In this document: piece after piece, positions 1 to 61,614 of the stretch | Position numbering within the stretch: position 1 is the first letter of the stretch | Layout of the letters: the number at the start of each line of letters is the position of its first letter | Assembly (NCBI RefSeq): GCF_056712565.1 | Contig: NZ_CM160072.1 | Direction: 5' to 3' (one strand) | DNA: 64,000 nt | Notes under the pieces: generated by a model | The model's input: only the letters and a program-made list of their open reading frames with translations | The model's database searches: none | What the model was told of the DNA's origin: nothing | Program-made: the position numbers and the translations under genes

Positions 1-181
1 CACGGTGCTGACTCTGTTTGTCATCGCGGGCGGGGCGACGGCCACCGTCAGCACGAGATTTTCCTGGACGCCCGCCCCCTTTCCCGGTACGCGGGTTGTG
101 GGTACGTTTATCAGAATCATCATCACTGCGGACATACATCACTTTGACCTTGCCGCTTTTACCTTTCATTTCATCGTTCAT
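1..181 (-). CDS. yfiF: tRNA/rRNA methyltransferase YfiF, 5' portion only (gene runs off window start)
   Basis: Reverse-complement translation from ATG at 179-181 gives [21 protein letters not shown]...; position upstream of trxC matches K-12 gene order. The listed 171..374 ORF is a different frame and judged spurious. Confidence 0.6.
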
Positions 182-29904: not shown

Positions 29905-29917
29905 AGTTAAGACGCTC
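29905..29917. repeat. attL core
   Basis: Identical 13-mer at 61266-61278; flanking bases partially similar. Confidence 0.7.
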
Positions 29918-29998: not shown

Positions 29999-31048
29999 TT
30001 ATGCAACCTCTGCCGCCATATTGTCGCCAACATACAGCGATAACGGATTAAGGGTTACAGCTTGTTCAAGGTGGTCAGGAGCAAAGTGTGCATACTTCAT
30101 TGTTTCTCGAATATTGGCATGCCCGAGAATTTTCTGCAGTACCAGTATATTCCCGCCGTTCATCATAAAATGCGCACCAAAAGTATGACGCAAAACGTGC
30201 GTCTTCTGCCCTTCCGTCAATTCAATATTCGTTAGTTTGAGCATCTTCTTAAACTCCTGATAGCAGGGTTTAAACATTCTGCCTTGACGTACGGACAACT
30301 CGTCGTACAGCCATTTAGGAATAGGAACTGTGCGATTCTTCTTACCTTTGGTTTTGGTGAACGTCAGTTTATATGGAGAAAGTTGAGGGCGGGTCAATCT
30401 CTCCGCTTCCCCCCATCGAGCGCCGGTTGCAAGGCACACCTTAACAATCATGGTGAGGTCTTCTTTGCCGTATTGCTCGCAGGCTCGAAACAGCTCCGGG
30501 AGCTGAGACAAAGTTAGCCAGGACATTTCTTTCTCAGCCTCTTTGAATACTCGGATCCCATCAAGTGGATTGGGTAGGCTCCACTCCCCTAACCGGCGGA
30601 GCTCATTAAACACTGCTTCTAGGTATTGTTGTTCGCGATTGACGGTTATAGGTTTGGCGATCCATTTCGAGGGGTCTTTATGATAACCGTTGTCTATTTC
30701 ACCACGTAATCGACGGTCACGATAATGAGCCCAGTCTTTCGCGGTAAGGCGAGATGCAATCGGGTCACCAAGCCCATTACATACGATTTGAAGCTTTGCT
30801 AACCTCGACTTACTGGCGACTAACGCTTGACCGTGCAAATTGTGCCAAAGCTGAATAATCTCGCTTAAGCGTCGGCGGTCTTCTTTCTTGCCAAGCCACG
30901 GCTTATCTTCACTCTCGCTTTTGGTAAATGCTTCGAATGCCTCGGCCTCACCTTTGGTATTGAATTGCCGACGTATACGCCGCCCTTCTCGACCATTTGG
31001 ATAGAGCTCGCATAACCATTTGCCATTTTTTTGCTTACTTACAGTCAT
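29999..31048 (-). CDS. int: phage integrase (tyrosine recombinase, 186/P2 Int family)
   Basis: 349 aa; MTVSKQKNGKWLCELYPNG...; catalytic region HVLRHTF...LGHANIRETMKYAHF. Confidence 0.9.
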   Translation of the reverse strand: MTVSKQKNGKWLCELYPNGREGRRIRRQFNTKGEAEAFEAFTKSESEDKPWLGKKEDRRRLSEIIQLWHNLHGQALVASKSRLAKLQIVCNGLGDPIASRLTAKDWAHYRDRRLRGEIDNGYHKDPSKWIAKPITVNREQQYLEAVFNELRRLGEWSLPNPLDGIRVFKEAEKEMSWLTLSQLPELFRACEQYGKEDLTMIVKVCLATGARWGEAERLTRPQLSPYKLTFTKTKGKKNRTVPIPKWLYDELSVRQGRMFKPCYQEFKKMLKLTNIELTEGQKTHVLRHTFGAHFMMNGGNILVLQKILGHANIRETMKYAHFAPDHLEQAVTLNPLSLYVGDNMAAEVA

Positions 31049-31070: not shown

Positions 31071-31409
31071 TTATTCGCAAAGTGCTGTTGCGGCATCCAT
31101 TACAGGATCCAAAGGAATTTTTACACCTGCATACTCTGGACTGTCTTTCCAAACAGCATCAATATTGCTCCCCTCAAGCTTTCCAGACTTTACTCCATCA
31201 ATAGCAAAACCATTTAATGGGTATCGGTCATCAGTTGCTTTGTCGTATACAAAGGCATACTTACCGTTAACGCAAGACACCGTAGCTTTTTCAAAAGTTA
31301 ACGGCCAATCCTCACCAAACTTAGCGCCATCTAAATCCTGTGTTTTTTCAGCGGCTAAGGAGCCAAAAGAAAAGGTAAGAAGCATAGCTAAAAAGAGTTT
31401 ACGTTTCAT
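31071..31409 (-). CDS. small secreted protein of unknown function (cargo gene between int and repressor)
   Basis: Start at MKRKLFLAMLLTFSFGSLAA (signal peptide); two Cys in mature part; overlaps the repressor gene's 3' end by ~10 bp. Confidence 0.6.
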   Translation of the reverse strand: MKRKLFLAMLLTFSFGSLAAEKTQDLDGAKFGEDWPLTFEKATVSCVNGKYAFVYDKATDDRYPLNGFAIDGVKSGKLEGSNIDAVWKDSPEYAGVKIPLDPVMDAATALCE

Positions 31410-31417
31410 AATTTCCC

Positions 31418-32278
31418 TTATACGTGTTTTTCCAATGTGAAAACTACAACCCCGGCAGGCGTAATGTCGGTAATGTTGCATTCAAACTCAGCAGACTTAT
31501 TTGACAACCTGACTTTTCCACCAGGTAAACGAATTACATCAAAAACATCAAGAGCGCCGTCGATATCAATTAACCAGCGACCATTACTTATATTCGAAGC
31601 AGAACAGTCGACAAGCCAAGAGGCAGCTACACCGTCAACAAAAATCAATTCCCCTGAGTTAGAAGGAATCATTGAGGGGTCAGGATGCCACGTTCCTGCA
31701 TCCTTAAGCTCACCAGATTCAAGACGAGATTTTTTAATAGAAAAACCAGATGTGACATCTTCCCTGTTAGCTCGCATTTGCCCCTTGCCTGTTGCTAACC
31801 ATTCCAGTGACGTATCGGTATCAAGAGCGCATGTAACAACAACATCACCAGGGAAAAAATCTCGCCTTACCCATGTGCTAATTGTGCCAGAGGAAATGCC
31901 GAGCAAATCACCGAGCTCCTTTTGCATGGTAAAGCCATACGCATCAAGAATCCTACGCAAAACGGTTTTACCACCATTCGTCATAATCTCGTCATAAAGC
32001 TCTTTGCCTTTTAACTTGCAACTGGCTCGCTCGTGATTTGCATTTGCAAGCTCTCCATTTACAAGCCAATTGATATCAGCTCCCGTGTCAAGACAACACC
32101 TAACTATGACATTGCCAGGTATTGCATCACGCTGAACCCAGCCGCTAACGCTGTGTTTAGCGATACCTAGCAGGTCAGCCAAATCCTTTTGCATCTTGAC
32201 CCCATAGGCTGACATTAAGCGTTCCAATACGCCGTTCGTTGCACTAACACGCCACTGTACATCAAGCTCAGAACTCAT
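31418..32278 (-). CDS. 186 CI-like immunity repressor with tandemly duplicated N-terminal DNA-binding domain
   Basis: 286 aa; two homologous ~60-aa segments (LERLMSAYGVKMQKDLADLLGIAKHSVSGWVQRD... and LRRILDAYGFTMQKELGDLLGISSGTISTWVRRD...); C-terminus resembles 186 CI (GRWLIDIDGA...LPGGKVRL...FEC). Confidence 0.8.
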   Translation of the reverse strand: MSSELDVQWRVSATNGVLERLMSAYGVKMQKDLADLLGIAKHSVSGWVQRDAIPGNVIVRCCLDTGADINWLVNGELANANHERASCKLKGKELYDEIMTNGGKTVLRRILDAYGFTMQKELGDLLGISSGTISTWVRRDFFPGDVVVTCALDTDTSLEWLATGKGQMRANREDVTSGFSIKKSRLESGELKDAGTWHPDPSMIPSNSGELIFVDGVAASWLVDCSASNISNGRWLIDIDGALDVFDVIRLPGGKVRLSNKSAEFECNITDITPAGVVVFTLEKHV

Positions 32279-32546
32279 AAAAACCCCTACAGATAATTTT
32301 ATGGGTGTTTACAGAAAACTTTTTACGATCTATAGTGGCATTCATCGACCAAGATGCACACCACTGCACTACATTTCAAACAACAGGAGATAATGCGATA
32401 TGTCAGATGCAAAATCAATCTCGACGCACGACTCGCAAAACTCACAAAATCAAACTGTGCTGCTAGATCCAACACAGTTTGATGCCATCGTTACCGCCAT
32501 GCTGCCAGCTCTACAGACAATGATTCGCTCCGCTATGTCAGACACG

Positions 32547-32771
32547 ATGACTGTGAAAGACTTCGCCGCTACTCGCGGTGTTAGCGAGCGTCTGGTCTGG
32601 CAATGGCTCGATGAGGGAGTTCTTCTCAAAGCTCCGACCAAAGACTTTTCCAACAAAGAGGAAGCTGCTAAACGAAGCCGAACCCTCGTAAACGTAAAAG
32701 CATGGCGCGATAAGCTGACTCAACAAGCGATTGATTGTCGCTACATCGACCAGCGCACCGCTCTTAACTGA
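32547..32771 (+). CDS. Apl/Cox-like excisionase / switch regulator
   Basis: Divergent from repressor; HTH segment MTVKDFAATRGVSERLVWQWLDEGVLLKAP; start uncertain (ORF opens at 32400). Confidence 0.6.
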   Translation: MTVKDFAATRGVSERLVWQWLDEGVLLKAPTKDFSNKEEAAKRSRTLVNVKAWRDKLTQQAIDCRYIDQRTALN

Positions 32772-34340: not shown

Positions 34341-36563
34341 TTGGCTGTTCAATTCGCTTATCCGTGGAACGTCCCACGGTCGGCAATCTCCAGCCCATAC
34401 CTTACTTATGAGCAACAGCATCGCCGCGACCGTATGTTCGCGGCTTTGCTGCATGCAAAAAAGGTGCTTTCTCTCCAGCCCGACTGCGTGCGGTTAGATG
34501 TTTATCGCACTGCTGCGGTGCTGGAGCAAAATCAGGGTAGTCAACGAGCCAATGCATTTTTAATCAGCTTCTGCAAAAAGGCATTGCCGCGTCTTGAACT
34601 GGTCGCAAAAAAATACGAATGCGCTGGTATCAACAGCAAGGTATCAACCGCTGTTTTTGGAAGTCATTTTGATACTCAGCAAATGCAATATCTGTCGTCA
34701 CGCATGGTTAATATGGTCGCCCGATATAACCGTCTCCCGGACATGTCGCGCGCTGATGTTGACCTGTTGGCCGCTGATATTGCTAATTTCATTCGTGGTG
34801 AACTTGCCAACATTAATGACCACGGATTCGGCGAGCTTAAAACGCTGTACACCTGGTATATTCGTGCTGGCTTTATTTCCCTCCAATTCAACGTTATCCC
34901 ACCACATTGGGAGCGGGTTGAAAAAAAATATGTCGGTGCGGATGAAATCGCACCGGCTATCGCCAAAATGTTTAACGATGGGTGGTGGCGCGGTCGTTTG
35001 CGCCGTGTAGCAGCTACGTGGCGCGAACACCTGCAAATTGCAGTCGGCAACGTCAGTAAGAAAAAAAACACTTACGCGAGTAAAAACTGCGTGACTGACT
35101 GGCGTGAACAAAAGCGCCGCACTCGTGAATTTCTCAAAGGTCTGGATCTCGAAGACGAAGACGGCAACCGTATCAGCCTAATTGAAAAATATGATGGCTC
35201 AGTTGCTAACCCTGCGATTCGCCGCTGTGAGCTCATGACCCGCATTCGTGGGTTTGAAAACATCTGTAATGAGCTCGGTTATGTCGGTGAGTTTTACACT
35301 CTAACCGCGCCGTCAAAATATCACGCCACGACTAAAGCCGGTTACCGTAACAGCAAATGGAGCGGTGCCAGCCCGGCTGACACGCAAAACTATCTAACCG
35401 GTATCTGGGCGCGTATCCGTGCCAAACTACATCGGGAAGATGTCCGTATTTTCGGTATTCGTGTCGCCGAGCCCCATCACGACGGCACTCCACACTGGCA
35501 CATGCTGATGTTCATGCTGCCGGAAGATGTTGAATATGTTCGCTCCATCGTCCGTAAATACGCATGGAAAGAAGACCGCCACGAACTGAAAAGCGATAAA
35601 TCCAAAAAAGCACGTTTCCACGCGGAGTCCATTGACCCGGAGAAAGGCAGCGCAACCGGCTATGTTGCTAAATACATTTCAAAAAATATCGACGGTTATG
35701 CTCTCGATGGTGAAACCGATGATGAAAGCGGTGAGCTGCTGAAAGAGACAGCCCCCGCCGTTTCAGCATGGGCTGCGCGCTGGCACATCCGTCAGTTTCA
35801 GTTTATTGGTGGTGCGCCGGTGACGGTTTACCGTGAGTTGCGTCGCCTCGCTGATACCGAAACCGCGCACGGTCTGAGCGTTGAGTTTGCCGCCGTCCAT
35901 GATGCCGCCGACGCTGGTGACTGGGCTGGTTATGTTAATGCTCAGGGTGGGCCGTTTGTCCGTCGCGATGATTTACAGGTGCGCACACTGTATGAACCGC
36001 GTACCGAGCTTAATCAGTACGGTGAGGAAACGGTATGTATTAAGGGGGTCTACGATTCCTCCATAGGTGCAGGAAGCCCGATTTTAACCCGGCTCACTCA
36101 GTGGAAGATTGTTCCGAAGCGTGCTGTTGATTTGCCCGTTGACCTTCAGGACGGCAAAGCCGTCCCTCGGAGTTCTGTCAATAACTGTACGGGAAGCGAA
36201 AGCGATCCACCGATACTGGATTTAACAAAACCACTGAGTCGGCGTGAAAGACGAGAATTGACCAACCGACTCAGGAAGCAAAAGCCAGCAGCACGGCGAA
36301 AATTCATCCACGGAACGGATGAGCAAAACGCAGCTATAGCTAAAACTATCGATGAGATACATCTGACAACCGGCATTAATATCAGCCGGGGCGAAGCCCT
36401 GCACCTGATGGCCGGTGGTAAAAGTTGTTTTGATGGTAAATGGCTACGCGGAACGGCCAAAGGAGAAATATTTTCCGCAGCACCATCGCATGAGGCTAAA
36501 GCTCGGAAAATCCTTAATCGTGTTGCGGCGATGGCTGAAGCATTAAAACCAATACATGAGTAA
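34341..36563 (+). CDS. replication initiation endonuclease (P2 gpA / 186 RepA family)
   Basis: 740 aa; position and size; HUH-like region (TPHWHMLMFM) and tandem tyrosines (YVAKYISKNIDGYAL). Confidence 0.8.
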   Translation: MAVQFAYPWNVPRSAISSPYLTYEQQHRRDRMFAALLHAKKVLSLQPDCVRLDVYRTAAVLEQNQGSQRANAFLISFCKKALPRLELVAKKYECAGINSKVSTAVFGSHFDTQQMQYLSSRMVNMVARYNRLPDMSRADVDLLAADIANFIRGELANINDHGFGELKTLYTWYIRAGFISLQFNVIPPHWERVEKKYVGADEIAPAIAKMFNDGWWRGRLRRVAATWREHLQIAVGNVSKKKNTYASKNCVTDWREQKRRTREFLKGLDLEDEDGNRISLIEKYDGSVANPAIRRCELMTRIRGFENICNELGYVGEFYTLTAPSKYHATTKAGYRNSKWSGASPADTQNYLTGIWARIRAKLHREDVRIFGIRVAEPHHDGTPHWHMLMFMLPEDVEYVRSIVRKYAWKEDRHELKSDKSKKARFHAESIDPEKGSATGYVAKYISKNIDGYALDGETDDESGELLKETAPAVSAWAARWHIRQFQFIGGAPVTVYRELRRLADTETAHGLSVEFAAVHDAADAGDWAGYVNAQGGPFVRRDDLQVRTLYEPRTELNQYGEETVCIKGVYDSSIGAGSPILTRLTQWKIVPKRAVDLPVDLQDGKAVPRSSVNNCTGSESDPPILDLTKPLSRRERRELTNRLRKQKPAARRKFIHGTDEQNAAIAKTIDEIHLTTGINISRGEALHLMAGGKSCFDGKWLRGTAKGEIFSAAPSHEAKARKILNRVAAMAEALKPIHE

Positions 36564-36637
36564 TTCATATCCATATCATGCACATACAGCAATCGCTCTA
36601 TTCGTTTTTTTTCTTCCCATCTTTTGCCAATACGTGC

Positions 36638-36657
36638 TACTGTATAAATATACAGTA
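36638..36657. promoter_or_regulatory. LexA box (SOS operator)
   Basis: TACTGTATAAATATACAGTA = CTGT-N8-ACAG consensus, ~20 bp upstream of the 36677 ORF. Confidence 0.8.
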
Positions 36658-36676
36658 ACCCTATGGGAGGGATTTC

Positions 36677-36859
36677 ATGGTTGGCGAACATTTCAGCCGA
36701 ACGCAGCAAAAGTGGGCTTGTGTGCAATTTATTGCCGAGGTATCTCTGATTGCAAACTGCAAGCCATCAGACTTAAAGCTCGCGCTCACTCTCATTGCAG
36801 ACCTAGCAAACAGCGAAAATAACGAAACCGAAGATGATAATTTTTATAAGGCTGATTAG
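36677..36859 (+). CDS. small SOS-controlled protein, possible Tum-like antirepressor
   Basis: 60 aa; GGAGGG RBS; directly downstream of the LexA box; position equivalent to 186 tum. Confidence 0.4.
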   Translation: MVGEHFSRTQQKWACVQFIAEVSLIANCKPSDLKLALTLIADLANSENNETEDDNFYKAD

Positions 36860-36862
36860 ATT

Positions 36863-37093
36863 ATGAGAATCAATATCACGTTGGATAAAGAGCAAAAATT
36901 AGGGCAACAGATCATTGATGCTTTTCAGAATGAAATAACACATCGAGTACAATGCGTTTTTCCTGCAACAAAAGTTAACGTTAAGAAAGGGTCAATGACT
37001 GGTGTAGAGGCTATCGGATTCGATAAAGAGGCGGACAGAGAAACATTAGGCAGCATATTACAAGAGATTTGGGAAGACGATAGCTGGCGTTAA
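36863..37093 (+). CDS. DinI-family protein
   Basis: 76 aa; MRINITLDK...QEIWEDDSW resembles E. coli DinI (MRIEVTIAK...QETWESADDW). Confidence 0.8.
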   Translation: MRINITLDKEQKLGQQIIDAFQNEITHRVQCVFPATKVNVKKGSMTGVEAIGFDKEADRETLGSILQEIWEDDSWR

Positions 37094-37292
37094 ACATAAT
37101 AACCGTGCTGGCGCAAAAACTAGCTTTTTGCGTCGGCGGGGTTGAGTAACGAGCCCACGAGGCTTAAGTCCTGCCTTTCAAAATTTCTCAATGTGCTATT
37201 GATGACACGCCCATGATTAATGAGGCATGACCTGAGATGGTTTTATAGTGGCGTTTTGACGGCACTGATTAAAATTCATTGAGGGTGATAAT

Positions 37293-37502
37293 ATGCATCG
37301 ACTACCAGGTGAAATACCGCAGCACAAAACTAAAAGCATCAAACTGATGGCCATCGTTCATCGTTTGCAGCAGATAATGGTCAATGAGAATTTGACACCC
37401 GCAGAGCTGGTCGGGTGTGCCGAAATAGTCAGGGATAATTACGGCAAGCTGGATAGCATCAGCAGGTCGAAACAATACGCACCACCACCACGTCGACGAT
37501 AG
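37293..37502 (+). CDS. hypothetical protein
   Basis: 69 aa; GAGGG RBS; flanked by two copies of a ~30-bp repeat. Confidence 0.4.
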   Translation: MHRLPGEIPQHKTKSIKLMAIVHRLQQIMVNENLTPAELVGCAEIVRDNYGKLDSISRSKQYAPPPRRR

Positions 37503-37576
37503 CAAACGCCGCCGGTTCTGAAACTCGCTTTCAGTACTGGCGGGGGTTGAACAACGAGCACCGCGAGGCGTTAGCA

Positions 37577-38518
37577 TTAATTTATTTTTAATGAATGGTA
37601 ATCTCGTGAGTTGACCGAAGATTTGAGATAACTGCAATCATTAACCGACAGTATTGCCGCTAATAGGCGACATACCAGTGCCTGCATTTGCAGCAATATA
37701 TCGTTACCATATTGACTGTTGTTAACACTTGAGAAACCAAGCGGTTGACCAAAAAAAATAGCCTCATGAAAATTATCATTGCGGATGCCAGAAATGTTTT
37801 TTTTACCTGACACCCATGTGGGGATTGATAACCCATAAATTTTGCACATCCACTTTAATCGCTTGTAATGATTTGGCGGTTTTTTATCAGGAGCCTTGTC
37901 ATGCTCAGCCCACGACAAAGCAAAGCACCCATCAAGTGCCATGTAAAGATACTGGAATTTTTCAAAAGAAAGGTATTGTGGGTTTTGAGATAAGAATAGT
38001 GCATGCACCACTGCCGCAATTCTTTTGGGGGAGTGCGCATCCTTATGTTTGCCATTTATATAATTAAGAGCCAGTTCTATGACTTCTTTTTCAGAGCATC
38101 CAACGAGAATAAAGTCGGTTAACTTAGTGGGCTTGATAGTGGTTGCATCTAAAAAACCAGCGTCAGTGGTTGTCAATCTTATTCCCTTGAAAAAAGAAAG
38201 GCACCACACAATAAAGTTGAGAGTTTCTAACGAGGATGTATTTTTTAATTTTAGTGTGTGCGTTTTGGGCATACTGAATACTCGGTGACTATAAGGCATT
38301 GTGGATATGCCACCATTAAGGTTATATACATCTTGGTTTCCAGGGTATATCCAACCTTTCACAACGTTTTTATCATTATTAACACGCTCCACTTTCTCAT
38401 TGAGACCAGGTAAAGTAAGCAAAGAAAATTGTTCAGTCTCAATGTTAACTTCTACTGGATAGTATCCAAACTCCGACATAATCTCATTGGGTTGCTGTTC
38501 GTCAACTTCACCTTGCAT
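37577..38518 (-). CDS. hypothetical 313-aa protein at the cos-proximal old/tin position
   Basis: Long AT-rich ORF; GGAG RBS; 16-bp perfect palindrome CTCGATAATTATCGAG at 38541-38556 upstream; no motif recognised. Confidence 0.7.
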   Translation of the reverse strand: MQGEVDEQQPNEIMSEFGYYPVEVNIETEQFSLLTLPGLNEKVERVNNDKNVVKGWIYPGNQDVYNLNGGISTMPYSHRVFSMPKTHTLKLKNTSSLETLNFIVWCLSFFKGIRLTTTDAGFLDATTIKPTKLTDFILVGCSEKEVIELALNYINGKHKDAHSPKRIAAVVHALFLSQNPQYLSFEKFQYLYMALDGCFALSWAEHDKAPDKKPPNHYKRLKWMCKIYGLSIPTWVSGKKNISGIRNDNFHEAIFFGQPLGFSSVNNSQYGNDILLQMQALVCRLLAAILSVNDCSYLKSSVNSRDYHSLKIN

Positions 38519-38755
38519 ATCTTTCTCCGTTCAAAAATAGGCTCGATAATTATCGAGAGGCTATCATGTTTGGAAAGAACCAATGTCCGTAATTTTTGTA
38601 AATTTAAGGTGATTTATCAATAAATAAGCTGTGCATGCAACAGGTGCATGGTTCTGCATGCGCCGGGGTTACCCGTTTTGTACGTGCGCCGCAAGAGCTG
38701 GCGGGGATCCAGAGTGGTCATGCAACTGCATTAAAACCGCCCCATAAAGCGGGCA

Positions 38756-38774
38756 GGCGTGGCGGGGAAAGCAT
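38756..38774. other. cos (cohesive-end site), 186-type
   Basis: GGCGTGGCGGGGAAAGCAT, 17/19 identical to P2 cohesive end GGCGAGGCGGGGAAAGCAC as recalled; sits between replication/accessory region and portal gene. Confidence 0.65.
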
Positions 38775-38993
38775 TGCGCGTCAGCAGTGATGCGTAATAA
38801 TAAAAATTATCCTCTGAGCGCGTCGTGATGGCGCTGTCGTGGTCGCTGCTGGTTCGTTGGTGGTCGGGTGTGTTCGTGCGCGTGAGACGCATCTGATGCG
38901 TGATGGTGGTGTGCATGGAAAAGCCACCAGGAGCAGCGGCTTTACAGGAGTGGCAGGATTCAAACTGCTAATTATGTTTCTACTATGATTAAA

Positions 38994-39998
38994 CTAATTT
39001 ACATGTATGTAGAGTTCACCGTCGCCAGACCAATCGGGACACTCTAAAACAAGCCCAAACTGCTTGAATATTTCATCAATGATTATTGTTATCTCCCGAA
39101 AATCACCAAAACCTGTAATGTGCTGGTCATTAAACTTCCCATAAAGATTCTGAAAAGCAATGCCTAATTCTGATAATTGATATCTTATCTTTGAGTTGGA
39201 TAGTGTAAGGGATAGCTTTGGATCGTATTCTTTAATATTGATGTTTAGAGAATGGACATAACCCATCGCATAAGCATAAGAGTTGATGATTAGCCTGATA
39301 CGTTTTTTTACTTCGAGATACATGTCATTCAGAGAAATATTACCGTACTTATAACCCCAGATGAGTTTTTCAATCTCGTCAGATACTTCATTTACAACAG
39401 TGTCAAGATTCTCTAAAAATAAATCGATAGTTTCTTGAGGGGCAGACCCCGAAGACATGTAATTAGCGAGATATTCAGACCATGCACGCGTGGCTGAGAT
39501 AAGAAGCGCGCTACCATACTCGTTGACTGTAAAGTTTTGGGCTAAGCATGTTAGTAAGTTTTTTTCATGTACGTGCACTAATTCATGGTGAATGCGATGG
39601 ATGACTGCGAGGTATCCTTCTTCTTTCAGTTTTAAGAAGCTACCATCATTGAAAAGCTCAACAAAAAAATCAATCGATAGCACAAGGGTATATTCTTCAC
39701 ATAGCCCATCATTGCCAATTTTTGTTACTAACTGCCCGACGGCTGCGCCCTGTTTACTATTGGTAAATGAACTAGGGGATTTGTGTTGGTAAGAGGATGT
39801 TACCTTTTGAAGAGCTTCACTGAAGTTATAGGAAACAATCACGCATTTTAATTTGGAGATATCAAGATTGAGATTTTTTGTTAAAGCTCGGATAGCTTCT
39901 AGTGTGAAATTACCGATATTATTTGCTTCTTGCTCAGTAGCGAAACCTTCGAGGGTTATTTTAAAATCAGTTTCCAAAATATTAATCTCCGCGCCCAT
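38994..39998 (-). CDS. hypothetical 334-aa protein with HExxH zinc-metallopeptidase-like motif (cargo between cos and portal)
   Basis: AT-rich ORF; motif VIHRIHHELVHVHEKN; own sigma70-like promoter upstream. Confidence 0.7.
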   Translation of the reverse strand: MGAEINILETDFKITLEGFATEQEANNIGNFTLEAIRALTKNLNLDISKLKCVIVSYNFSEALQKVTSSYQHKSPSSFTNSKQGAAVGQLVTKIGNDGLCEEYTLVLSIDFFVELFNDGSFLKLKEEGYLAVIHRIHHELVHVHEKNLLTCLAQNFTVNEYGSALLISATRAWSEYLANYMSSGSAPQETIDLFLENLDTVVNEVSDEIEKLIWGYKYGNISLNDMYLEVKKRIRLIINSYAYAMGYVHSLNINIKEYDPKLSLTLSNSKIRYQLSELGIAFQNLYGKFNDQHITGFGDFREITIIIDEIFKQFGLVLECPDWSGDGELYIHVN

Positions 39999-40016
39999 TG
40001 TTTTGATATTCGATGC

Positions 40017-40045
40017 ACTATAGCTTTCGCAGATTGCATCTTCAA
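40017..40045 (-). promoter_or_regulatory. sigma70-like promoter for the 334-aa gene
   Basis: Minus-strand TTGAAG-17 bp-TATAGT, ~20-50 bp upstream of the ATG. Confidence 0.55.
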
Positions 40046-40075
40046 TAATGAGCGCAGAGATTGTGGCGGCCTAAG

Positions 40076-41122
40076 TTATTCTGGGTTGTCGAGGGTGTAC
40101 TCTTTGAATCTGATGACCTCCATGCCGAGCCAGTCATTTACCTCCCTGAACCTGTCCTGTAGCGGCGACAGCTCGTTGCGCACAAATACCTTTGCCACCT
40201 TCTCAACATCACCGAGTGAACCGATATTCTCGGGCTTGCCGCCCATGAGCTGGAACGGTACGCGGTGCGCGTCCATCAGATCGGCGGCACTGGCCTTCTT
40301 GATGTTGAAAAAGTCATCCTTTGTGGCGACCTCGCTCAGTGGCACGATTTTGATGCCGTCCGGTTTTCCGCCGGGAGCGTAGAAAAACAGGTTCTTAAAG
40401 TTGCCGAGCCCTTTTGAGTTGCGCATCGCCTCGCGCAGCGATTCGACGTCGGTCGCGCTCTGCGCCGGGTCAGTCACATACATGATGTAACCCGCGTGCG
40501 CGCCGTTCTGATAATACTTGCGGCGGAACAGCGTCGCGGATTCATTCAGCCAGGCGGAATTTAGCGCGCTGAGATATTCGGGCAGGCCGTAAATCTCCTG
40601 ATTAATGTCGGGCTCCAGCAGGTGAAACACGGTATCAGGCGCGAACTCGTGCGGCTGGGTGAAGTTTTCCACAAACCAGAAAATCGAATCGTCGACTCCG
40701 CGTCGGGTGTATTTGGCTGGCGAGGCCAGCAGTTTGATTAACTGGCCGGTGACGCTGTGGCGCTGCTCAAGAAAGGCGTTACCGAACACCAGATAATCGA
40801 GCGCAAAGCGGCTGAAATCCTGACGGGATAACAACGGGTGCGGAATGTAGGTGCTCGCGAGCACGTTACGCTTAACATAAATTGGCGAGCTGTGATGCAC
40901 GGCAGAGCGCAGGCTCTTTGCCAGCCCTGAGAAGCTGACCGGCGGCTCGTACCATTTGCCGTTACTGATGCACTCGACGTAATCCAGAATGTCGCGCTTA
41001 TCGAGTACCGGCACCGGCTCGCCGAAGGTGAACGCTGTCGTTTTTGGCGGTGCGCTGGCGGTCAGTTGTTGTGGTTTGCTGGCCTTTTGTGCGTTGGCTT
41101 TACGGGATTTTTGTTTACCCAT
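40076..41122 (-). CDS. portal protein (P2 gpQ family)
   Basis: 348 aa; size and position adjacent to terminase ATPase. Confidence 0.85.
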   Translation of the reverse strand: MGKQKSRKANAQKASKPQQLTASAPPKTTAFTFGEPVPVLDKRDILDYVECISNGKWYEPPVSFSGLAKSLRSAVHHSSPIYVKRNVLASTYIPHPLLSRQDFSRFALDYLVFGNAFLEQRHSVTGQLIKLLASPAKYTRRGVDDSIFWFVENFTQPHEFAPDTVFHLLEPDINQEIYGLPEYLSALNSAWLNESATLFRRKYYQNGAHAGYIMYVTDPAQSATDVESLREAMRNSKGLGNFKNLFFYAPGGKPDGIKIVPLSEVATKDDFFNIKKASAADLMDAHRVPFQLMGGKPENIGSLGDVEKVAKVFVRNELSPLQDRFREVNDWLGMEVIRFKEYTLDNPE

Positions 41123-41123
41123 T

Positions 41124-42893
41124 TTAGTTGAACTCCAGAATAGATTTAGGCTGCATGCCGCTACCGGCAGAAAGCGGTTCGTTTAACAGGGCGTGCATGG
41201 TCGCCCATGCGATATCGGCGTGGCTGGCTTCCTCGGTGCGGCTGGCCTCATAGGTGGCGCTGCGCCCGCTGCTGGTCATGGTTTTGCGGATGGACATAAA
41301 CGACTGCGTGACGTCGGTTGCTCCGGCGTCGTACTCCAGACAGCCACGGCGAATGGTGTCTTTCGCCTTGAGTACCATTGCGGTTTTCATTTCAGGTGTG
41401 TAACGGATGCCGCGTGCCGCCGGGTAAAATGAGCGCACCAGCTGGAACACGCCGAGACCGAGGCCGGTTGCGTCAATGCCGATGTATTCGACGTTGTATT
41501 TCTCGGTCAGCTTGCGGATGCCCTCTGCCTGTGCTGCAAAATCCATGCCCTTCCACTGGTGGCGCTCCAGCATGCGGAACTTGCCACCAGAGACCACCGG
41601 CGGCGCGAGCACGACGCACCCGGCACTGTCGCCGGTGTGTGACGGGTCGTAGCCAATCCAGACAGGACGAGAGCCGAACGGATGGTCGGCGAACGGGGCA
41701 AAGTCCTCCCATTCCTCCATCACATCGACCATGCAGCGCTGCAGCTCCTCGAACGGGAATACCGACGCTTTATCGTCGACAAACTCGCACATAAACAGGT
41801 TCTTAAAGTCCTCATCACTGTTTTCGCGTTTGAGCTGGTCGAGGTCGAACAGGGTGCAGCCACCCGCAAGGGCGTCCTCAATGGTGACAATCTGCCGCCA
41901 CTGGCCATCGTCGCAGAGCTGGCCACCGGCGAGCGCGCTGTGACTGATGTCGATTTCGATGCGGTCGGCAATCCGGCTGCGCCCCTTGTTGAACAGCTCG
42001 CCAGACCAGAAGGGGTAAGCGCCGTGCGCCAGCGTGGAAGGTGTCGAAAAATAGGTCGAGCGCAGGTGCTTTTGCGAGGCCATGCCCGAGGCGACTTTGC
42101 GCAGTTTCTGAAAATTCGGGATCCAGAATATTTCATCGACATACAGATCGCCGTTATGGCTCTGCGCGGTGTTGGAATTGGTACCGAGAAAAATCAGTTT
42201 TGCGCCGTTGTTACCGATGACAATCGGGTCGCCAGTCAGGTCAACGTCGACCAGTCGCGCAAACTGGATGATGTATTCGCGGAACACGTAAGCCTGCGTT
42301 TTACTGGCTGATAAAAATATCTGGTTATGGCCGGTTTTGAGTACGCGCAGCAGTGCCTCGCGGGAGAAATAGAATGTCGCGCCAATCTGGCGGGATTTGA
42401 GAATGTCACGAATACGGTGCTCCAGTCCTGCGCGGTACCACTGCAACTGGTACTCGAAAGACTGGTCGAAAAATAATTCCTCTAGTTTATCGATAGCCTC
42501 GTCGCTGAAAAAATTCTTTTTCGGCTTTTTGCGCTCCCCTTTGTTGCGGTTGGCGACGTTGGGGTTAAGGTCGGCTTCGTTGCCGGTCTGGCTGTAGCGG
42601 TTGACTCGCGCCAACCGTTCAATCTGCCGTCCGAGCAGGTCAATCTCTTTGAAATCACCCCCTGTCTTTTGCGGCTTGGCGATGAGCTGAATCAGCCTAG
42701 CCTCAAGGCTGCTTTCAACGCGGGAAATCGGCGCGATGCCGTCCCAGCCGTCGCGCTGCTTCCAGCTCTGCACGGTCGGGCGCTTGACCTGCAGCATTTC
42801 GGCAATCTGTGGCACGGAAAAACCCTGCCAGTAAAGCAGCGATGCCTGCCGTCGCGGGTCATGCAACAAGGTTGTATCGGTGGAAATGGTCAT
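41124..42893 (-). CDS. terminase large subunit / ATPase (P2 gpP family)
   Basis: 589 aa, divergent from scaffold/capsid operon. Confidence 0.85.
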   Translation of the reverse strand: MTISTDTTLLHDPRRQASLLYWQGFSVPQIAEMLQVKRPTVQSWKQRDGWDGIAPISRVESSLEARLIQLIAKPQKTGGDFKEIDLLGRQIERLARVNRYSQTGNEADLNPNVANRNKGERKKPKKNFFSDEAIDKLEELFFDQSFEYQLQWYRAGLEHRIRDILKSRQIGATFYFSREALLRVLKTGHNQIFLSASKTQAYVFREYIIQFARLVDVDLTGDPIVIGNNGAKLIFLGTNSNTAQSHNGDLYVDEIFWIPNFQKLRKVASGMASQKHLRSTYFSTPSTLAHGAYPFWSGELFNKGRSRIADRIEIDISHSALAGGQLCDDGQWRQIVTIEDALAGGCTLFDLDQLKRENSDEDFKNLFMCEFVDDKASVFPFEELQRCMVDVMEEWEDFAPFADHPFGSRPVWIGYDPSHTGDSAGCVVLAPPVVSGGKFRMLERHQWKGMDFAAQAEGIRKLTEKYNVEYIGIDATGLGLGVFQLVRSFYPAARGIRYTPEMKTAMVLKAKDTIRRGCLEYDAGATDVTQSFMSIRKTMTSSGRSATYEASRTEEASHADIAWATMHALLNEPLSAGSGMQPKSILEFN

Positions 42894-45061: not shown

Positions 45062-45811
45062 ATGACGAGCCCCGCACAGCGTCACATGATGCGGGTCTCG
45101 GCCTCTCAAGCCGCGCAGCGGGAACAAGCCCCGCTGCGCCATGCAACCGCCTACGAGCAGATGCTGGTAAAGCTGGCCGATGACCGCCGCACGTTGAAAA
45201 CCATCCGTTCAAACGAACTGAAAGCCGCGAAAAAGCGTGAGCTGCTGCCGTTCTATGCGCCGTGGGTCGCCGGTGTGCTGGCTGATGGCCGTGGTGCGCA
45301 GGATGACATTCTGATGACAGTCATGCTGTGGCGTCTCGATGCCGGTGATATCGCTGGCGCGCTGGAAATTGCGCCATACGCGCTGAAGTACGGCCTCACC
45401 TCTGACTATCGCCGCACGACACCTTACATGCTGGTTGAGGAGGTGGCGCTTGCCGCGCTGCGCCTGCGCGATGCCGGTGAGCCTGTCGACCTCGCATTAC
45501 TGCTGACCACCCTTAGCCTGACCGACGGCGCAGACGTTCCCGATATGGTGCGCGCTCGACTGCATAAGGTGACCGGTCTAACCCTGCGCGATGCCGGTCA
45601 GAGCGCCGAAGCACTGGCACAGTTTCAGCGCGCGATGCAGCTCGACCGCAATGCCGGTGTGCGCAAAGAGATTGAGCGACTGGAGCGGGCATTGAAGCCT
45701 AAGCCCGATGCCGCGCCCCGTAAAACGACTAAACCGCGCACGCGCAAACCTGCCACCAAACCGGCGGCAAAGCGCGGGCGTCCACCAAAGGCGGTAAAAA
45801 CCGCCGGTTAA
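45062..45811 (+). CDS. terminase small/endonuclease subunit (gpM family)
   Basis: 249 aa; basic C-terminus. Confidence 0.8.
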   Translation: MTSPAQRHMMRVSASQAAQREQAPLRHATAYEQMLVKLADDRRTLKTIRSNELKAAKKRELLPFYAPWVAGVLADGRGAQDDILMTVMLWRLDAGDIAGALEIAPYALKYGLTSDYRRTTPYMLVEEVALAALRLRDAGEPVDLALLLTTLSLTDGADVPDMVRARLHKVTGLTLRDAGQSAEALAQFQRAMQLDRNAGVRKEIERLERALKPKPDAAPRKTTKPRTRKPATKPAAKRGRPPKAVKTAG

Positions 45812-48879: not shown

Positions 48880-49524
48880 TTATAGTTTGAAATCTGCGTA
48901 ATTATCAATAACCTCTAGAACACCGCTGATGTTGTTATCTCTGCGCCAATTCCAATTGCCATGTATCAAATTTGCATTAGAATAAAGATATCTAAGGAAC
49001 TGAGATGGTAAGAGTGGTTTGTTGCATAAAAATTCATCATAACTATTACTCATATACCACACATATCCATTTTTAATGTCAAAACTTAAATTCTCACCTT
49101 CAATTTTCTTAAAGTTAATTTCTTTATTTAGAGCATTTTCAAACTCTTGTGTATAATAAACACAGTGTATATGAGCGTGAGAAATGCACCCTCCTGAACG
49201 ATCTATATTTTCACCTGCTCCGCTTTCAAAGAAAATTAGAGATCTACCAGATTGGTGGATTATAAATTCATTAAGTTCTCGCAGAATCTCCTTGCCATTA
49301 CTCCGGGTATCTCGATCAAGAGCAGCAAAGGAGTTGATATGCCGCTTAGGAATCAGCATCACATGCGAATTATTTAGCGGGCCAATACTAGGTACAATTA
49401 GAAAATCATTTGTTTCTGCAATGATATTTTTCTTGTCATTTACGATTTCATCGTATCCTTTGATAAGGCTAATGCCATTTATTTCATCGCATATTCCACA
49501 GAACGAATTACAAGAATTATTCAC
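48880..49524 (-). CDS. HIT (histidine triad)-motif protein, cargo gene
   Basis: 214 aa; HIT signature SHAHIHCVY and upstream HVMLIPKRHI; N-terminal CxxC (CNSFCGIC); AT-rich. Confidence 0.75.
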   Translation of the reverse strand: MNNSCNSFCGICDEINGISLIKGYDEIVNDKKNIIAETNDFLIVPSIGPLNNSHVMLIPKRHINSFAALDRDTRSNGKEILRELNEFIIHQSGRSLIFFESGAGENIDRSGGCISHAHIHCVYYTQEFENALNKEINFKKIEGENLSFDIKNGYVWYMSNSYDEFLCNKPLLPSQFLRYLYSNANLIHGNWNWRRDNNISGVLEVIDNYADFKL

Positions 49525-50089
49525 GTTTATTGTCTCCTGGTTTTTTAGGGAGCAATTTTTCAGCCCAAGATGCGAGTCGGCTTAGAACTAAGTCTGAAAA
49601 ATATCCTAATATAAAACAAATCGAGAATGCAATTTTGGTCTTACCATGCCCTTTAATGGAGGATACAAACGTATCCGGAGATAATATCGTATAAGAACAA
49701 AAAGCCACTAAAGCAGCTAAGAACGGAATAAAAATCCTCCAGTAGAACTTATGGGATTCCCAAGGGAAATTATACTGATTGTTTTTCCCTCTAGCAGTTA
49801 CTCTATAAAACCATTTTGCATTATACACCCACCCTCCAAAAAAACCACCAAGAATAGAAAACAAAGATATTTTATTATTATATGACAGCTCAAAAACAAA
49901 TTGAAAAAGAAAGGCGAGAATGCAACCTATTACAAAAAGAACTATTAAATAAGCAAATTCGAATTTTATTTGTTCACAATCGTTATTAAAATAAGGCACA
50001 ACCTCATCATCGCCTAAGGTTTTTTTTCTTTCAGTCATTTGCCAAACACCTTCATTTTTTACTGTGAGCCAGGGTAATTGCATATTCAA
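49517..50089 (-). CDS. small membrane protein (~4 TM helices), cargo gene upstream of HIT gene
   Basis: 190 aa; hydrophobic segments AYLIVLFVIGCILAFLFQFVF, ISLFSILGGFFGGWVY, FYWRIFIPFLAALVAFCSY, IAFSICFILGYF; 8-bp overlap with HIT gene; start codon uncertain. Confidence 0.65.
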   Translation of the reverse strand: MNMQLPWLTVKNEGVWQMTERKKTLGDDEVVPYFNNDCEQIKFEFAYLIVLFVIGCILAFLFQFVFELSYNNKISLFSILGGFFGGWVYNAKWFYRVTARGKNNQYNFPWESHKFYWRIFIPFLAALVAFCSYTILSPDTFVSSIKGHGKTKIAFSICFILGYFSDLVLSRLASWAEKLLPKKPGDNKRE

Positions 50090-60900: not shown

Positions 60901-61119
60901 ATGATGCACTGCCCGTTATGCCAAAACGCCGCACATGCTCGTACTAGCCGGTACCTTAGCACCGAAACGAAAGAACGTTATCACCAATGCCAGAACATAA
61001 ATTGCGGATGTACATTTATCACTTTTGAGACGCTATCAAGATTCATTGTGAAACCGGGCACTGTTGATCCTGCTCCGCCACATCCCATCAGAAACCAACA
61101 ACAGCAACTTTGGCTTTGA
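60901..61119 (+). CDS. ogr: Ogr/Delta-type zinc-finger late transcription activator
   Basis: 72 aa; CPLCQ...-22 aa-...CQNINC zinc finger; terminator hairpin CCTGCTTCGGCAGG+T-run follows. Confidence 0.85.
   Translation: MMHCPLCQNAAHARTSRYLSTETKERYHQCQNINCGCTFITFETLSRFIVKPGTVDPAPPHPIRNQQQQLWL

Positions 61120-61263: not shown

Positions 61264-61614
<351 letters not shown>

What the first reader, a model, noticed from the sequence alone, without database searches (positions are those of the whole stretch)
38756..38774. cos sequence is the 186 variant rather than the P2 variant
GGCGTGGCGGGGAAAGCAT differs from the P2 cohesive end (as I recall it) at two positions. Together with the CI/Apl/CII-type switch and the LexA-controlled module, this places the prophage closer to 186 than to P2. 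That matters when transferring P2 hotspot annotations to it.
Basis: established knowledge. Interest (0 to 1): 0.25.

Follow-up and report, generated by a model that had tools for sequence, protein, structure and literature searches.

The report
186-type cos site of a prophage
The 19 bases are an exact copy of the DNA-packaging cut site (cos) of phage 186, in its normal place in an intact 186-like prophage of E. coli, so the feature is real but already known.

Summary
Observation confirmed. GGCGTGGCGGGGAAAGCAT occurs once, at 38756-38774 (+). It is identical to the annotated cohesive end of phage 186 (and PSP3). It differs from P2/Wphi/P4 (GGCGAGGCGGGGAAAGCAC) at positions 5 and 19. The termini of the 186, PSP3, EtG and SEN1 genome records map exactly to 38755/38756.

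The site sits in a roughly 325-bp GC-rich conserved island. Its 61-bp core matches 186 at 59/61 positions and P2 at 52/61. The island lies between the replication/SOS region and the portal-terminase genes of a roughly 31.4-kb prophage integrated at the 3' end of rplS.

Of 34 prophage proteins, 30 are closer to 186 than to P2, with mean identity 88.7% against 70.1%. CII is 97% identical, and a consensus LexA box precedes a tum/DinI-like module.

There are caveats. In a sample of 120 viral contigs the cos variant tracked the portal/terminase type without exception, but not the replication gene type. It therefore marks the packaging module only. This prophage also has a divergent CI, no recognisable Apl and a different attachment site.

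The cos island is flanked by two AT-rich cargo genes, a HEPN-fold protein and a gluzincin-like protein, inside the published cos-proximal hotspot. The finding is already known and of low interest.

The parts
38756..38774 (+). cos cohesive-end sequence (19 nt), 186 variant. By homology, the top strand is nicked 5' of 38756 and the bottom strand after 38774.
   Evidence: Unique exact match. Identical to the annotated cos of 186 and PSP3. Phage record termini map to 38755/38756.
38720..38780 (+). Conserved cos core, about -36 to +25 relative to the top-strand nick. It is presumably the terminase recognition and cleavage region shared by P2, 186 and P4.
   Evidence: Column conservation across 116 contigs plus 186 and P2. 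The window matches 186 at 59/61 positions, P2 at 52/61 and P4 at 54/61. The literature describes a conserved 55-bp cos shared by P2 and P4 (PMC9594776).
38627..38755 (+). Left flank of the cos island, homologous to the right end of the 186 genome.
   Evidence: Megablast to 186 30496-30624 at 86.8%. Global alignment gives 86.8% to 186 and 62.4% to P2. GC is 0.58 against 0.36-0.40 in the neighbouring cargo.
38775..38940 (+). Right flank of the cos island, ending in the tW-like terminator of the portal/terminase operon (minus strand, 38937..38923).
   Evidence: 81.5% identical to 186 bases 20-185, against 65.5% for P2. A terminator-like site lies at 38937-38923 on the minus strand, at the same offset as 186 tW at 164-187.
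41124..42893 (-). Terminase ATPase (large) subunit, homologue of 186 Orf12 and P2 gpP.
   Evidence: 589 aa, 98.6% identical to 186 and 88.8% to P2. RefSeq annotation of the identical prophage.
45062..45811 (+). Terminase endonuclease/small subunit, homologue of 186 R and P2 gpM.
   Evidence: 249 aa, 92.4% identical to 186 R and 71.1% to P2 M. RefSeq names it 'terminase endonuclease subunit'.
40076..41122 (-). Portal protein, homologue of 186 W and P2 Q.
   Evidence: 348 aa, 94.0% identical to 186 W and 77.1% to P2 Q.
38994..39998 (-). Cargo gene to the right of cos, inserted between the portal stop codon and the tW-like terminator. It encodes a predicted gluzincin-like zinc metallopeptidase fold of unknown function.
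37577..38518 (-). Cargo gene to the left of cos. It encodes a HEPN-fold protein with an Rx4H motif and is a candidate RNase or abortive-infection effector.
36638..36657 (+). LexA operator in the p95-like promoter of the SOS (tum) module.
   Evidence: CTGT-N8-ACAG match. The sequence is TACTGTATAAATATACAGTA. The region aligns with the 186 p95 promoter and LexA site.
36677..37093 (+). tum-like reading frame split by an in-frame TAG. It consists of a 60-aa N-terminal ORF (36677-36859) and a 76-aa DinI-like ORF (36863-37093).
   Evidence: Pfam DinI at E=1.7e-17. The DinI-like part is 70% identical to the Tum C-terminus. Alignment through the stop codon. The 60-aa ORF matches phrog_1993.
29905..29917 (+). 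attL core (AGTTAAGACGCTC).
   Evidence: 13-bp direct repeat with 61266-61278. It lies next to the integrase gene at 29999-31048.
61266..61278 (+). attR core, overlapping the 3' end of rplS.
   Evidence: Direct repeat. The ORF at 61264-61611 is on the minus strand.

Best explanation
Window 38756-38774 is the cos site of an apparently intact 186-like (P2-family) prophage. The prophage is about 31.4 kb, spans attL 29905 to attR 61278, and is inserted at the 3' end of rplS.

After induction and replication, the phage terminase (ATPase subunit 41124-42893, endonuclease/small subunit 45062-45811) would recognise the conserved core of about 61 bp (38720-38780). It would make staggered nicks 19 nt apart, giving virion DNA with 5'-protruding ends of sequence GGCGTGGCGGGGAAAGCAT. 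Packaging would proceed through the adjacent portal protein.

The T at position 5 and T at position 19, together with a linked A at -1, are the 186/PSP3 allele of this site. This allele is inherited with the head/packaging module, so it is a good marker of that module and a weaker marker of the early/immunity module.

What is shown: sequence identity, position, synteny, intact cognate genes, and the linkage pattern. What is inferred by homology: cleavage, the end structure, and the ability of this prophage to produce virions.
For: The 19-mer matches 186 exactly and uniquely and matches PSP3.

Genome-record termini of 186, PSP3, EtG and SEN1 map to 38755/38756.

The core is conserved from -36 to +25 in 116 contigs plus 186 and P2. 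It is 59/61 identical to 186.

Synteny is A - tum-like - cos - tW-like terminator - portal - terminase, as in 186.

The terminase and portal genes are full length and 92-99% identical to 186.

All late genes are present as open reading frames.

Identical prophage DNA occurs in 16 complete E. coli genomes and in a phage record at 99.8%.

Linkage: 46 of 46 P2-type portals carry A..C and 19 of 19 186-type portals carry T..T. Terminase large subunit gives 36 of 36 and 14 of 14. Gene A type is mixed.
Against: There is no experimental evidence here that this prophage is induced, cleaved at this site or packaged.

The contig census is a capped, non-random sample of 120 loci with redundancy among metagenomes.

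A 1-kb cargo gene separates the cos island from the portal gene, unlike in 186. The conserved right flank and terminator are nevertheless retained.

The tum homologue is split by a stop codon, so SOS inducibility is not certain.
Confidence: 0.9

Rival explanations
1. The substitutions at +5 and +19 (and at -1) are not neutral linked markers. They are specificity determinants that co-evolved with the terminase. On this view 186-type terminases prefer T..T sites and P2-type terminases prefer A..C sites, which would restrict which P4-like satellites this prophage can package.
For: The cos allele and the portal/terminase type are associated without exception wherever the type is clear: 65 of 65 for portal and 50 of 50 for terminase large subunit. 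A third linked position lies at -1, next to the nick. The P4-like satellites in the sample carry A..C in 12 of 13 cases.
Against: cos lies within 0.2-3 kb of the portal and terminase genes, so physical linkage alone predicts the association. Mixed alleles exist: 4 loci with T..C and 1 with A..T. Loci with an 'intermediate' portal carry either allele. From memory, not verified in the held library, 186 can act as helper for P4, which has the A..C site, and viable P2-186 hybrids exist.
Confidence: 0.1
2. The site is a relic in a defective prophage and no longer serves packaging.
For: The tum-like antirepressor frame is interrupted by a TAG codon. Cargo insertions lie on both sides of cos. The only matching phage record is labelled 'partial genome', and no paper describing it was found.
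Against: Every head, tail, lysis, replication and terminase gene is an intact ORF of the expected length, mostly 80-99% identical to its 186 counterpart; the exceptions are the tail-fibre genes (I, H, G) and the ogr/B-type activator. The cos core differs from 186 at only 2 of 61 positions. The split hyp60 + DinI architecture recurs at 98-100% identity in many independent loci, so it looks like a normal variant rather than decay. Both att cores are intact.
Confidence: 0.08
3. The match is coincidental or misplaced, and the real cos lies elsewhere in the prophage.
For: None found.
Against: Shuffles give a mean of 0.02 matches even with 3 mismatches allowed, and only one match is observed. The flanks are homologous to both ends of the 186 genome. 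No second site exists in the window.
Confidence: 0.01

Closest known systems
cos of coliphage 186 (NC_001317, bases 1-19), genus Eganvirus
   Same: The 19-nt cohesive-end sequence is identical. The 61-bp core matches at 59 of 61 positions. The flanks are 81-87% identical, with the same tW terminator offset, and the neighbours are the same: the tum/SOS operon on the left and the portal/terminase genes on the right.
   Different: In the window a 1-kb cargo gene (38994-39998) lies between the terminator and the portal gene. A HEPN-fold gene replaces 186 orf97 to the left of cos.
cos of Salmonella phage PSP3 (NC_005340)
   Same: The 19-mer is identical, and the record itself notes 'identical to 186 cos'. 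The late region is about 90% identical to the window.
   Different: The host genus differs, and the record shows no cargo between cos and the portal gene, which starts at base 198.
cos of P2, Wphi and satellite P4 (GGCGAGGCGGGGAAAGCAC)
   Same: The length and layout are the same. 17 of 19 cohesive-end bases are identical, and a conserved core is shared: 52-54 of 61 positions. The literature describes a conserved 55-bp cos shared by P2 and P4 (PMC9594776; PMC9122126).
   Different: These sites have A at position 5, C at 19 and usually G at -1. The flanks are only 47-69% identical.
Cos-proximal defence hotspot of P2-like phages (Rousset et al. 2022, PMC9122126)
   Same: The region between gene A and the portal gene, adjacent to cos, holds variable AT-rich accessory genes.
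   Different: The cargo here (a HEPN-fold protein and a gluzincin-like protein) matches no PADLOC model. It lies on both sides of cos, whereas P2's old and tin lie only on the left.

Membership tests
P2/186-family cos site | 19-nt sequence equal or nearly equal to an experimentally defined cohesive end | tested here: met
   Identical to the annotated cos of 186 and PSP3, and 17 of 19 bases match P2, Wphi and P4.
P2/186-family cos site | Embedded in the conserved core of about 55 bp shared by P2, 186 and P4 | tested here: met
   Columns -36..+25 are conserved in 116 contigs plus 186 and P2. The window matches 186 at 59/61, P2 at 52/61 and P4 at 54/61.
P2/186-family cos site | Position between the right end of the early region and the portal gene, with phage record termini at the same base | tested here: met
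   The gene order is A - tum-like - cos - portal. The 186, PSP3 and EtG records end at 38755 and the SEN1 record starts at 38756.
P2/186-family cos site | Cognate two-subunit terminase (gpP/gpM type) and portal encoded by the same element | tested here: met
   Terminase large subunit is 98.6%, the M/R-type subunit 92.4% and the portal 94.0% identical to 186, all as full-length ORFs.
P2/186-family cos site | Cleavage in vivo to give 5' protruding 19-nt ends | not testable with these tools
   This needs virion DNA end sequencing or a packaging assay.
186-like phage (Eganvirus-type) as opposed to P2-like (Peduovirus-type) | Structural and replication proteins closer to 186 than to P2 | tested here: met
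   30 of 34 proteins score higher against 186. Mean identity is 88.7% against 70.1% over 24 shared proteins. A is 82% vs 39%.
186-like phage (Eganvirus-type) as opposed to P2-like (Peduovirus-type) | 186-type lysis-lysogeny switch: CI family repressor, CII, and Apl | tested here: inconclusive
   CII is 97% identical to 186 CII. CI carries the Pfam Phage_CI_repr (two copies) and Phage_CI_C domains but is only 32% identical to 186 CI. The gene in the apl position has no 186 or P2 match, only phrog_575 'Cox-like' at E=8e-5.
186-like phage (Eganvirus-type) as opposed to P2-like (Peduovirus-type) | LexA-repressed tum (antirepressor/DinI-like) operon to the left of cos | tested here: met
   A consensus LexA box lies at 36638-36657 in a p95-like promoter. 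The DinI-like ORF is 70% identical to the Tum C-terminus. The frame is split by a TAG codon.
186-like phage (Eganvirus-type) as opposed to P2-like (Peduovirus-type) | 186 integration specificity (attB in ileY) | tested here: not met
   The 13-bp att core lies at the 3' end of rplS, between yfiB and rplS. Int is only 51% identical to 186 Int.
186-like phage (Eganvirus-type) as opposed to P2-like (Peduovirus-type) | Genus-level nucleotide similarity over the whole genome (about 70% by the ICTV convention, recalled from memory) | tested here: inconclusive
   blastn aligns 21,950 of 31,600 bases to 186 at 87.5%, which gives roughly 61% overall. P2 aligns 17,372 bases at 75.2%, roughly 41%. This is a rough proxy, not a VIRIDIC calculation.

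The most novel reading that the evidence does not exclude
The linked three-base polymorphism around the nick sites (-1 A/G, +5 T/A, +19 T/C) may be a functional recognition code matched to the terminase type. If so, this 186-type prophage would package T..T genomes preferentially and would be partly protected from parasitism by the common A..C-type P4-like satellites. The association with portal/terminase type (65 of 65 and 50 of 50) does not exclude this, but physical linkage explains it equally well.
Probability: 0.08. Interest if true: 0.4.

Novelty: already known. Interest (0 to 1): 0.1.

Why it matters
The value is practical rather than conceptual. Fixing cos at 38756-38774 sets the ends of the virion genome. 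It also shows that the head/packaging module is 186-type. It splits the published 'cos-proximal hotspot' (between gene A and the portal gene) into a left and a right cargo slot around a conserved island of about 325 bp.

Annotations keyed to P2 map positions transfer only partly. The old/tin slot is occupied by a HEPN-fold gene. A second slot between the terminator and the portal gene holds a gluzincin-like gene. The Z/fun slot is empty. The orf30 slot holds a HIT-family pair.

The census adds a caution. The cos allele predicts the packaging module but not the replication/immunity module, because P2-family genomes are mosaic.

Tried and rejected
(1) Hairpin next to the nick. The inverted repeat immediately left of the nick (38737-38756) was flagged as terminator-like on the minus strand. 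I tested it as a structural element. Across 100 distinct sequences the right arm (AAGCGGGC) is essentially invariant, while the left arm varies without compensation: pair -16/-3 is Watson-Crick in 56% and pair -18/-1 in 51%. I rejected it as a conserved hairpin; it is more likely read as sequence.

(2) Frame error in the first gene table. The first per-gene table used coordinates transferred from a RefSeq genome. A 1-bp offset beyond about 50,000 put genes V to D out of frame. I redid them with window ORF coordinates. The ogr/B frame was fixed.

(4) Co-occurrence of the cargo genes. I tested whether the two cargo genes form one system. In other loci each occurs without the other, so I treat them as independent.

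(5) Literature on the matching phage. A search for phage vB_EcoM-613R3, to learn whether it was isolated as a virion, found nothing relevant.

(6) 186 as a helper for P4. A search for a citable statement that 186 helps P4 found none in the held library. That point rests on memory.

(7) One paper search failed on a term that was too short.

Full report
**Observation.** The string GGCGTGGCGGGGAAAGCAT is at window 38756-38774 on the + strand. It is the only match in the 64-kb window even when three mismatches are allowed, and dinucleotide-preserving shuffles give a mean of 0.02 such matches.

**Reference comparison.** Bases 1-19 of the phage 186 record (NC_001317) are annotated 'cos; cohesive end; top strand cut at 5' end and bottom strand cut at 3' end'. 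They read GGCGTGGCGGGGAAAGCAT, identical to the window.
- Bases 1-19 of the P2 record (NC_001895, 'cosL') read GGCGAGGCGGGGAAAGCAC.
- PSP3 has the 186 form, and its record says 'identical to 186 cos'. Wphi and the satellite P4 have the P2 form.
- The position is fixed independently of the 19-mer. In a megablast of window 38300-39300, the last bases of the linear 186, PSP3 and EtG records align to window 38755, and base 1 of the SEN1 record aligns to window 38756.

**Anatomy of the site.** The 19-mer lies in a GC-rich island (GC 0.58) between two AT-rich stretches (GC 0.34-0.40).
- Ungapped comparison of 116 viral contigs plus 186 and P2 shows a strongly conserved core from about -36 to +25 relative to the top-strand nick (window 38720-38780). 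This agrees with the conserved cos of about 55 bp that the literature describes as the only homology between P2 and P4 (PMC9594776; PMC9122126).
- Within this core the window matches 186 at 59 of 61 positions, P2 at 52 of 61 and P4 at 54 of 61. Over -129..+185 it is 84.8% identical to 186, 65.6% to P2 and 58.6% to P4.
- The right flank ends in a terminator-like hairpin on the minus strand (38937-38923), at the same offset from cos as 186 tW at 164-187.
- A third polymorphic position is linked to the two in the overhang. Position -1 is A in most T..T sequences and G in most A..C sequences.
- An inverted repeat abutting the nick is not supported as a structure. Its right arm is invariant and its left arm varies without compensation.

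**Context.** The window matches 16 complete E. coli genomes at 99.6% identity or better (100% in four) over 36500-40100, and a phage record (vB_EcoM-613R3, 'partial genome') at 99.8%.
- RefSeq annotation of one of these genomes gives the order yfiB | int, DUF2511, CI | hypothetical, CII, Fil, DUF5347, DUF2732, TraR, A, hyp60, DinI-like, hyp69, hyp313(-), [cos], hyp334(-), portal(-), terminase ATPase(-), scaffold, capsid, terminase endonuclease subunit, the lysis and tail genes, and D.
- An ogr/B-type gene lies at 60901-61119.
- A 13-bp direct repeat, AGTTAAGACGCTC, at 29905-29917 and 61266-61278 marks attL and attR. The latter overlaps the 3' end of rplS. The prophage is about 31.4 kb.

**Lineage.** I ran tblastn of 34 prophage proteins against the complete 186 and P2 genomes. 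Thirty score higher against 186 and three (V, J, I) score marginally higher against P2. The gene in the apl position matches neither.
- Over the 24 proteins that align over more than 80% of their length with both phages, mean identity is 88.7% to 186 and 70.1% to P2.

| Protein | Identity to 186 (%) | Identity to P2 (%) |
|---|---|---|
| Terminase ATPase subunit | 98.6 | 88.8 |
| M/R-type terminase subunit | 92.4 | 71.1 |
| Portal | 94.0 | 77.1 |

- Among early functions, A is 82% identical to 186 and 39% to P2. CII is 97% identical to 186 and has no P2 counterpart. Fil and the DinI-like protein also match only 186.
- At the DNA level, 21,950 of 31,600 bases align to 186 at 87.5%, against 17,372 bases to P2 at 75.2%.
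- The best matches of the late region among isolated phages are Eganvirus-type phages such as PSP3, SEN1, SW9, EtG and Midge.
- An early version of the gene table was out of frame for genes V to D because of a 1-bp coordinate offset. I corrected it.

**Switch and SOS module.** A consensus LexA box, TACTGTATAAATATACAGTA, lies at 36638-36657.
- It sits within a stretch that aligns with the 186 p95 promoter and LexA site.
- It precedes a reading frame that aligns with 186 Tum along its length but is split by an in-frame TAG into a 60-aa ORF and a 76-aa DinI-like ORF. The DinI-like ORF hits Pfam DinI at E=1.7e-17 and is 70% identical to the Tum C-terminus.
- The split form recurs at 98-100% identity in many other loci. 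I therefore read it as a normal variant, not as decay.
- The repressor belongs to the 186 CI family (Phage_CI_repr and Phage_CI_C). It is 286 aa with two HTH domains and only 32% identical to 186 CI.
- The gene in the apl position has no 186 or P2 match and only a weak Cox-like profile hit.
- The integrase is 51% identical to 186 Int, and the attachment site is not ileY.
- The element is therefore a heteroimmune 186 relative with a different integration specificity.

| cos allele (positions 5..19) | Loci |
|---|---|
| A..C | 82 |
| T..T | 31 |
| T..C | 4 |
| A..T | 1 |
| G at position 5 | 2 |

I classified each locus by which reference protein it matches better.

| Marker gene | A..C loci | T..T loci |
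|---|---|---|
| Portal | 46 P2-type, 0 186-type, 15 intermediate | 19 186-type, 0 P2-type, 7 intermediate |
| Terminase large subunit | 36 P2-type, 0 186-type, 12 intermediate | 14 186-type, 0 P2-type, 5 intermediate |
| Replication gene A | 33 P2-type, 7 186-type, 2 intermediate | 16 186-type, 5 P2-type |

- For the portal and the terminase large subunit there are no exceptions. A further 15 and 7 portal loci are equidistant from both references.
- For replication gene A the association is looser. Thirteen loci are P4-like satellites, 12 with A..C and one with A..T.
- The allele is therefore a reliable marker of the adjacent packaging module and only a probabilistic marker of the early region. 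This is expected for mosaic genomes in which cos lies within 3 kb of the portal and terminase genes.
- For this prophage the inference 'closer to 186' is correct, but it rests on the gene-by-gene comparison rather than on cos alone.

**Mechanism.** By homology with 186 and P2, the two-subunit terminase encoded at 41124-42893 and 45062-45811 binds the conserved core. It nicks the top strand 5' of 38756 and the bottom strand after 38774, giving 19-nt 5' cohesive ends, and DNA is translocated through the portal encoded at 40076-41122.
- Sequence identity, position, synteny and gene integrity are shown here. Cleavage and virion production are inferred.
- Whether the polymorphic bases affect recognition is open. 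Mixed alleles exist. From memory, 186 can help P4, which argues for neutrality. I could not find a citable statement of this in the held library.

**Hotspot.** Rousset et al. define the P2 hotspot as the cos-proximal region between gpA and gpQ (PMC9122126). In the window this interval (36564-40075) is bipartite around the conserved cos island.
- **Left of cos.** After the SOS module and a 69-aa gene comes a 313-aa protein on the minus strand.
  - It has no Pfam or PADLOC match but has an invariant Rx4H motif.
  - Its family has about 400 clusters across Gammaproteobacteria, one of which UniRef names 'Apea-like HEPN'.
- **Right of cos.** Between the tW-like terminator and the portal stop codon lies a 334-aa protein from a small family of 78 clusters.
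  - It has invariant HHExxHxxE and WSEY motifs.
- The two genes occur independently in other loci. The HEPN gene appears at the same offset (-237) next to a P2-type cos in L022.
- In about 17 of roughly 90 contigs with a portal hit, the portal gene lies more than 250 bp from cos. A right-hand slot is therefore common.

**Verdict.** The cos sequence is an exact copy of a site known since the 1970s, and the prophage is an ordinary mosaic member of the 186 branch of the P2 family. Interest is low. The useful by-products are the exact virion ends, the bipartite layout of the cos-proximal hotspot, and two uncharacterised cargo genes with HEPN and zincin folds.

Noticed in passing
[not shown]
   Followed up: partly
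[not shown]
   Followed up: partly
window 36677-37093 (+): The tum homologue downstream of the LexA box is split by an in-frame TAG into a 60-aa ORF and a 76-aa DinI-like ORF with its own ATG. The same split architecture recurs at 98-100% identity in other contigs (for example L036, L062, L074), there paired with a different DinI-like partner (45-47% identical to the window's).
   Followed up: partly
window 31418-32278 (-): The immunity repressor is a 186-CI-family protein of 286 aa with two tandem Phage_CI_repr HTH domains plus the CI C-terminal domain. 186 CI is 192 aa with one HTH domain, and identity to it is only 32%.
   Followed up: no
window 32400-32771 (+): The gene in the apl/cox position is 123 aa with no tblastn match to 186 Apl or P2 Cox. 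It has only a weak hit to the 'Cox-like excisionase and repressor' PHROG (E=8e-5, residues 48-110). Its N-terminal 45 residues are unexplained.
   Followed up: no
window 48880-49999 (-): A two-gene minus-strand cargo lies between the S and V homologues, the position of P2 orf30. It consists of a HIT-family protein (214 aa) and a 160-aa protein of unknown function. Neither matches a PADLOC model.
   Followed up: no
window 38635-38790 (+): RefSeq annotates a 51-aa 'hypothetical protein' (WP_164966458.1) that runs across the cos cleavage site. It is probably a spurious gene call on conserved non-coding cos DNA, since it would be severed in virion DNA.
   Followed up: no
window 31071-31409 (-): A DUF2511 gene sits between int and CI, inside the lysogenic operon. 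It has no counterpart in 186 or P2 and may be a lysogenic-conversion gene.
   Followed up: no
window 29905-29917 and 61266-61278: The attachment core AGTTAAGACGCTC overlaps the 3' end of rplS, and the prophage lies between yfiB and rplS. This differs from the 186 site (ileY). Repeats resembling Int arm-type sites (CTCTGCCGCCA...) lie inside both ends of the prophage.
   Followed up: partly
IMG/VR loci L056, L077, L081, L088 (T..C) and L029 (A..T): Recombinant cos alleles exist. The four T..C loci belong to a lineage whose portal is equidistant (about 81%) from 186 and P2 and which has a 186-type A gene. The A..T locus is a P4-like satellite. Position -1 (A/G) is a third polymorphism, mostly linked to the other two.
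   Followed up: partly
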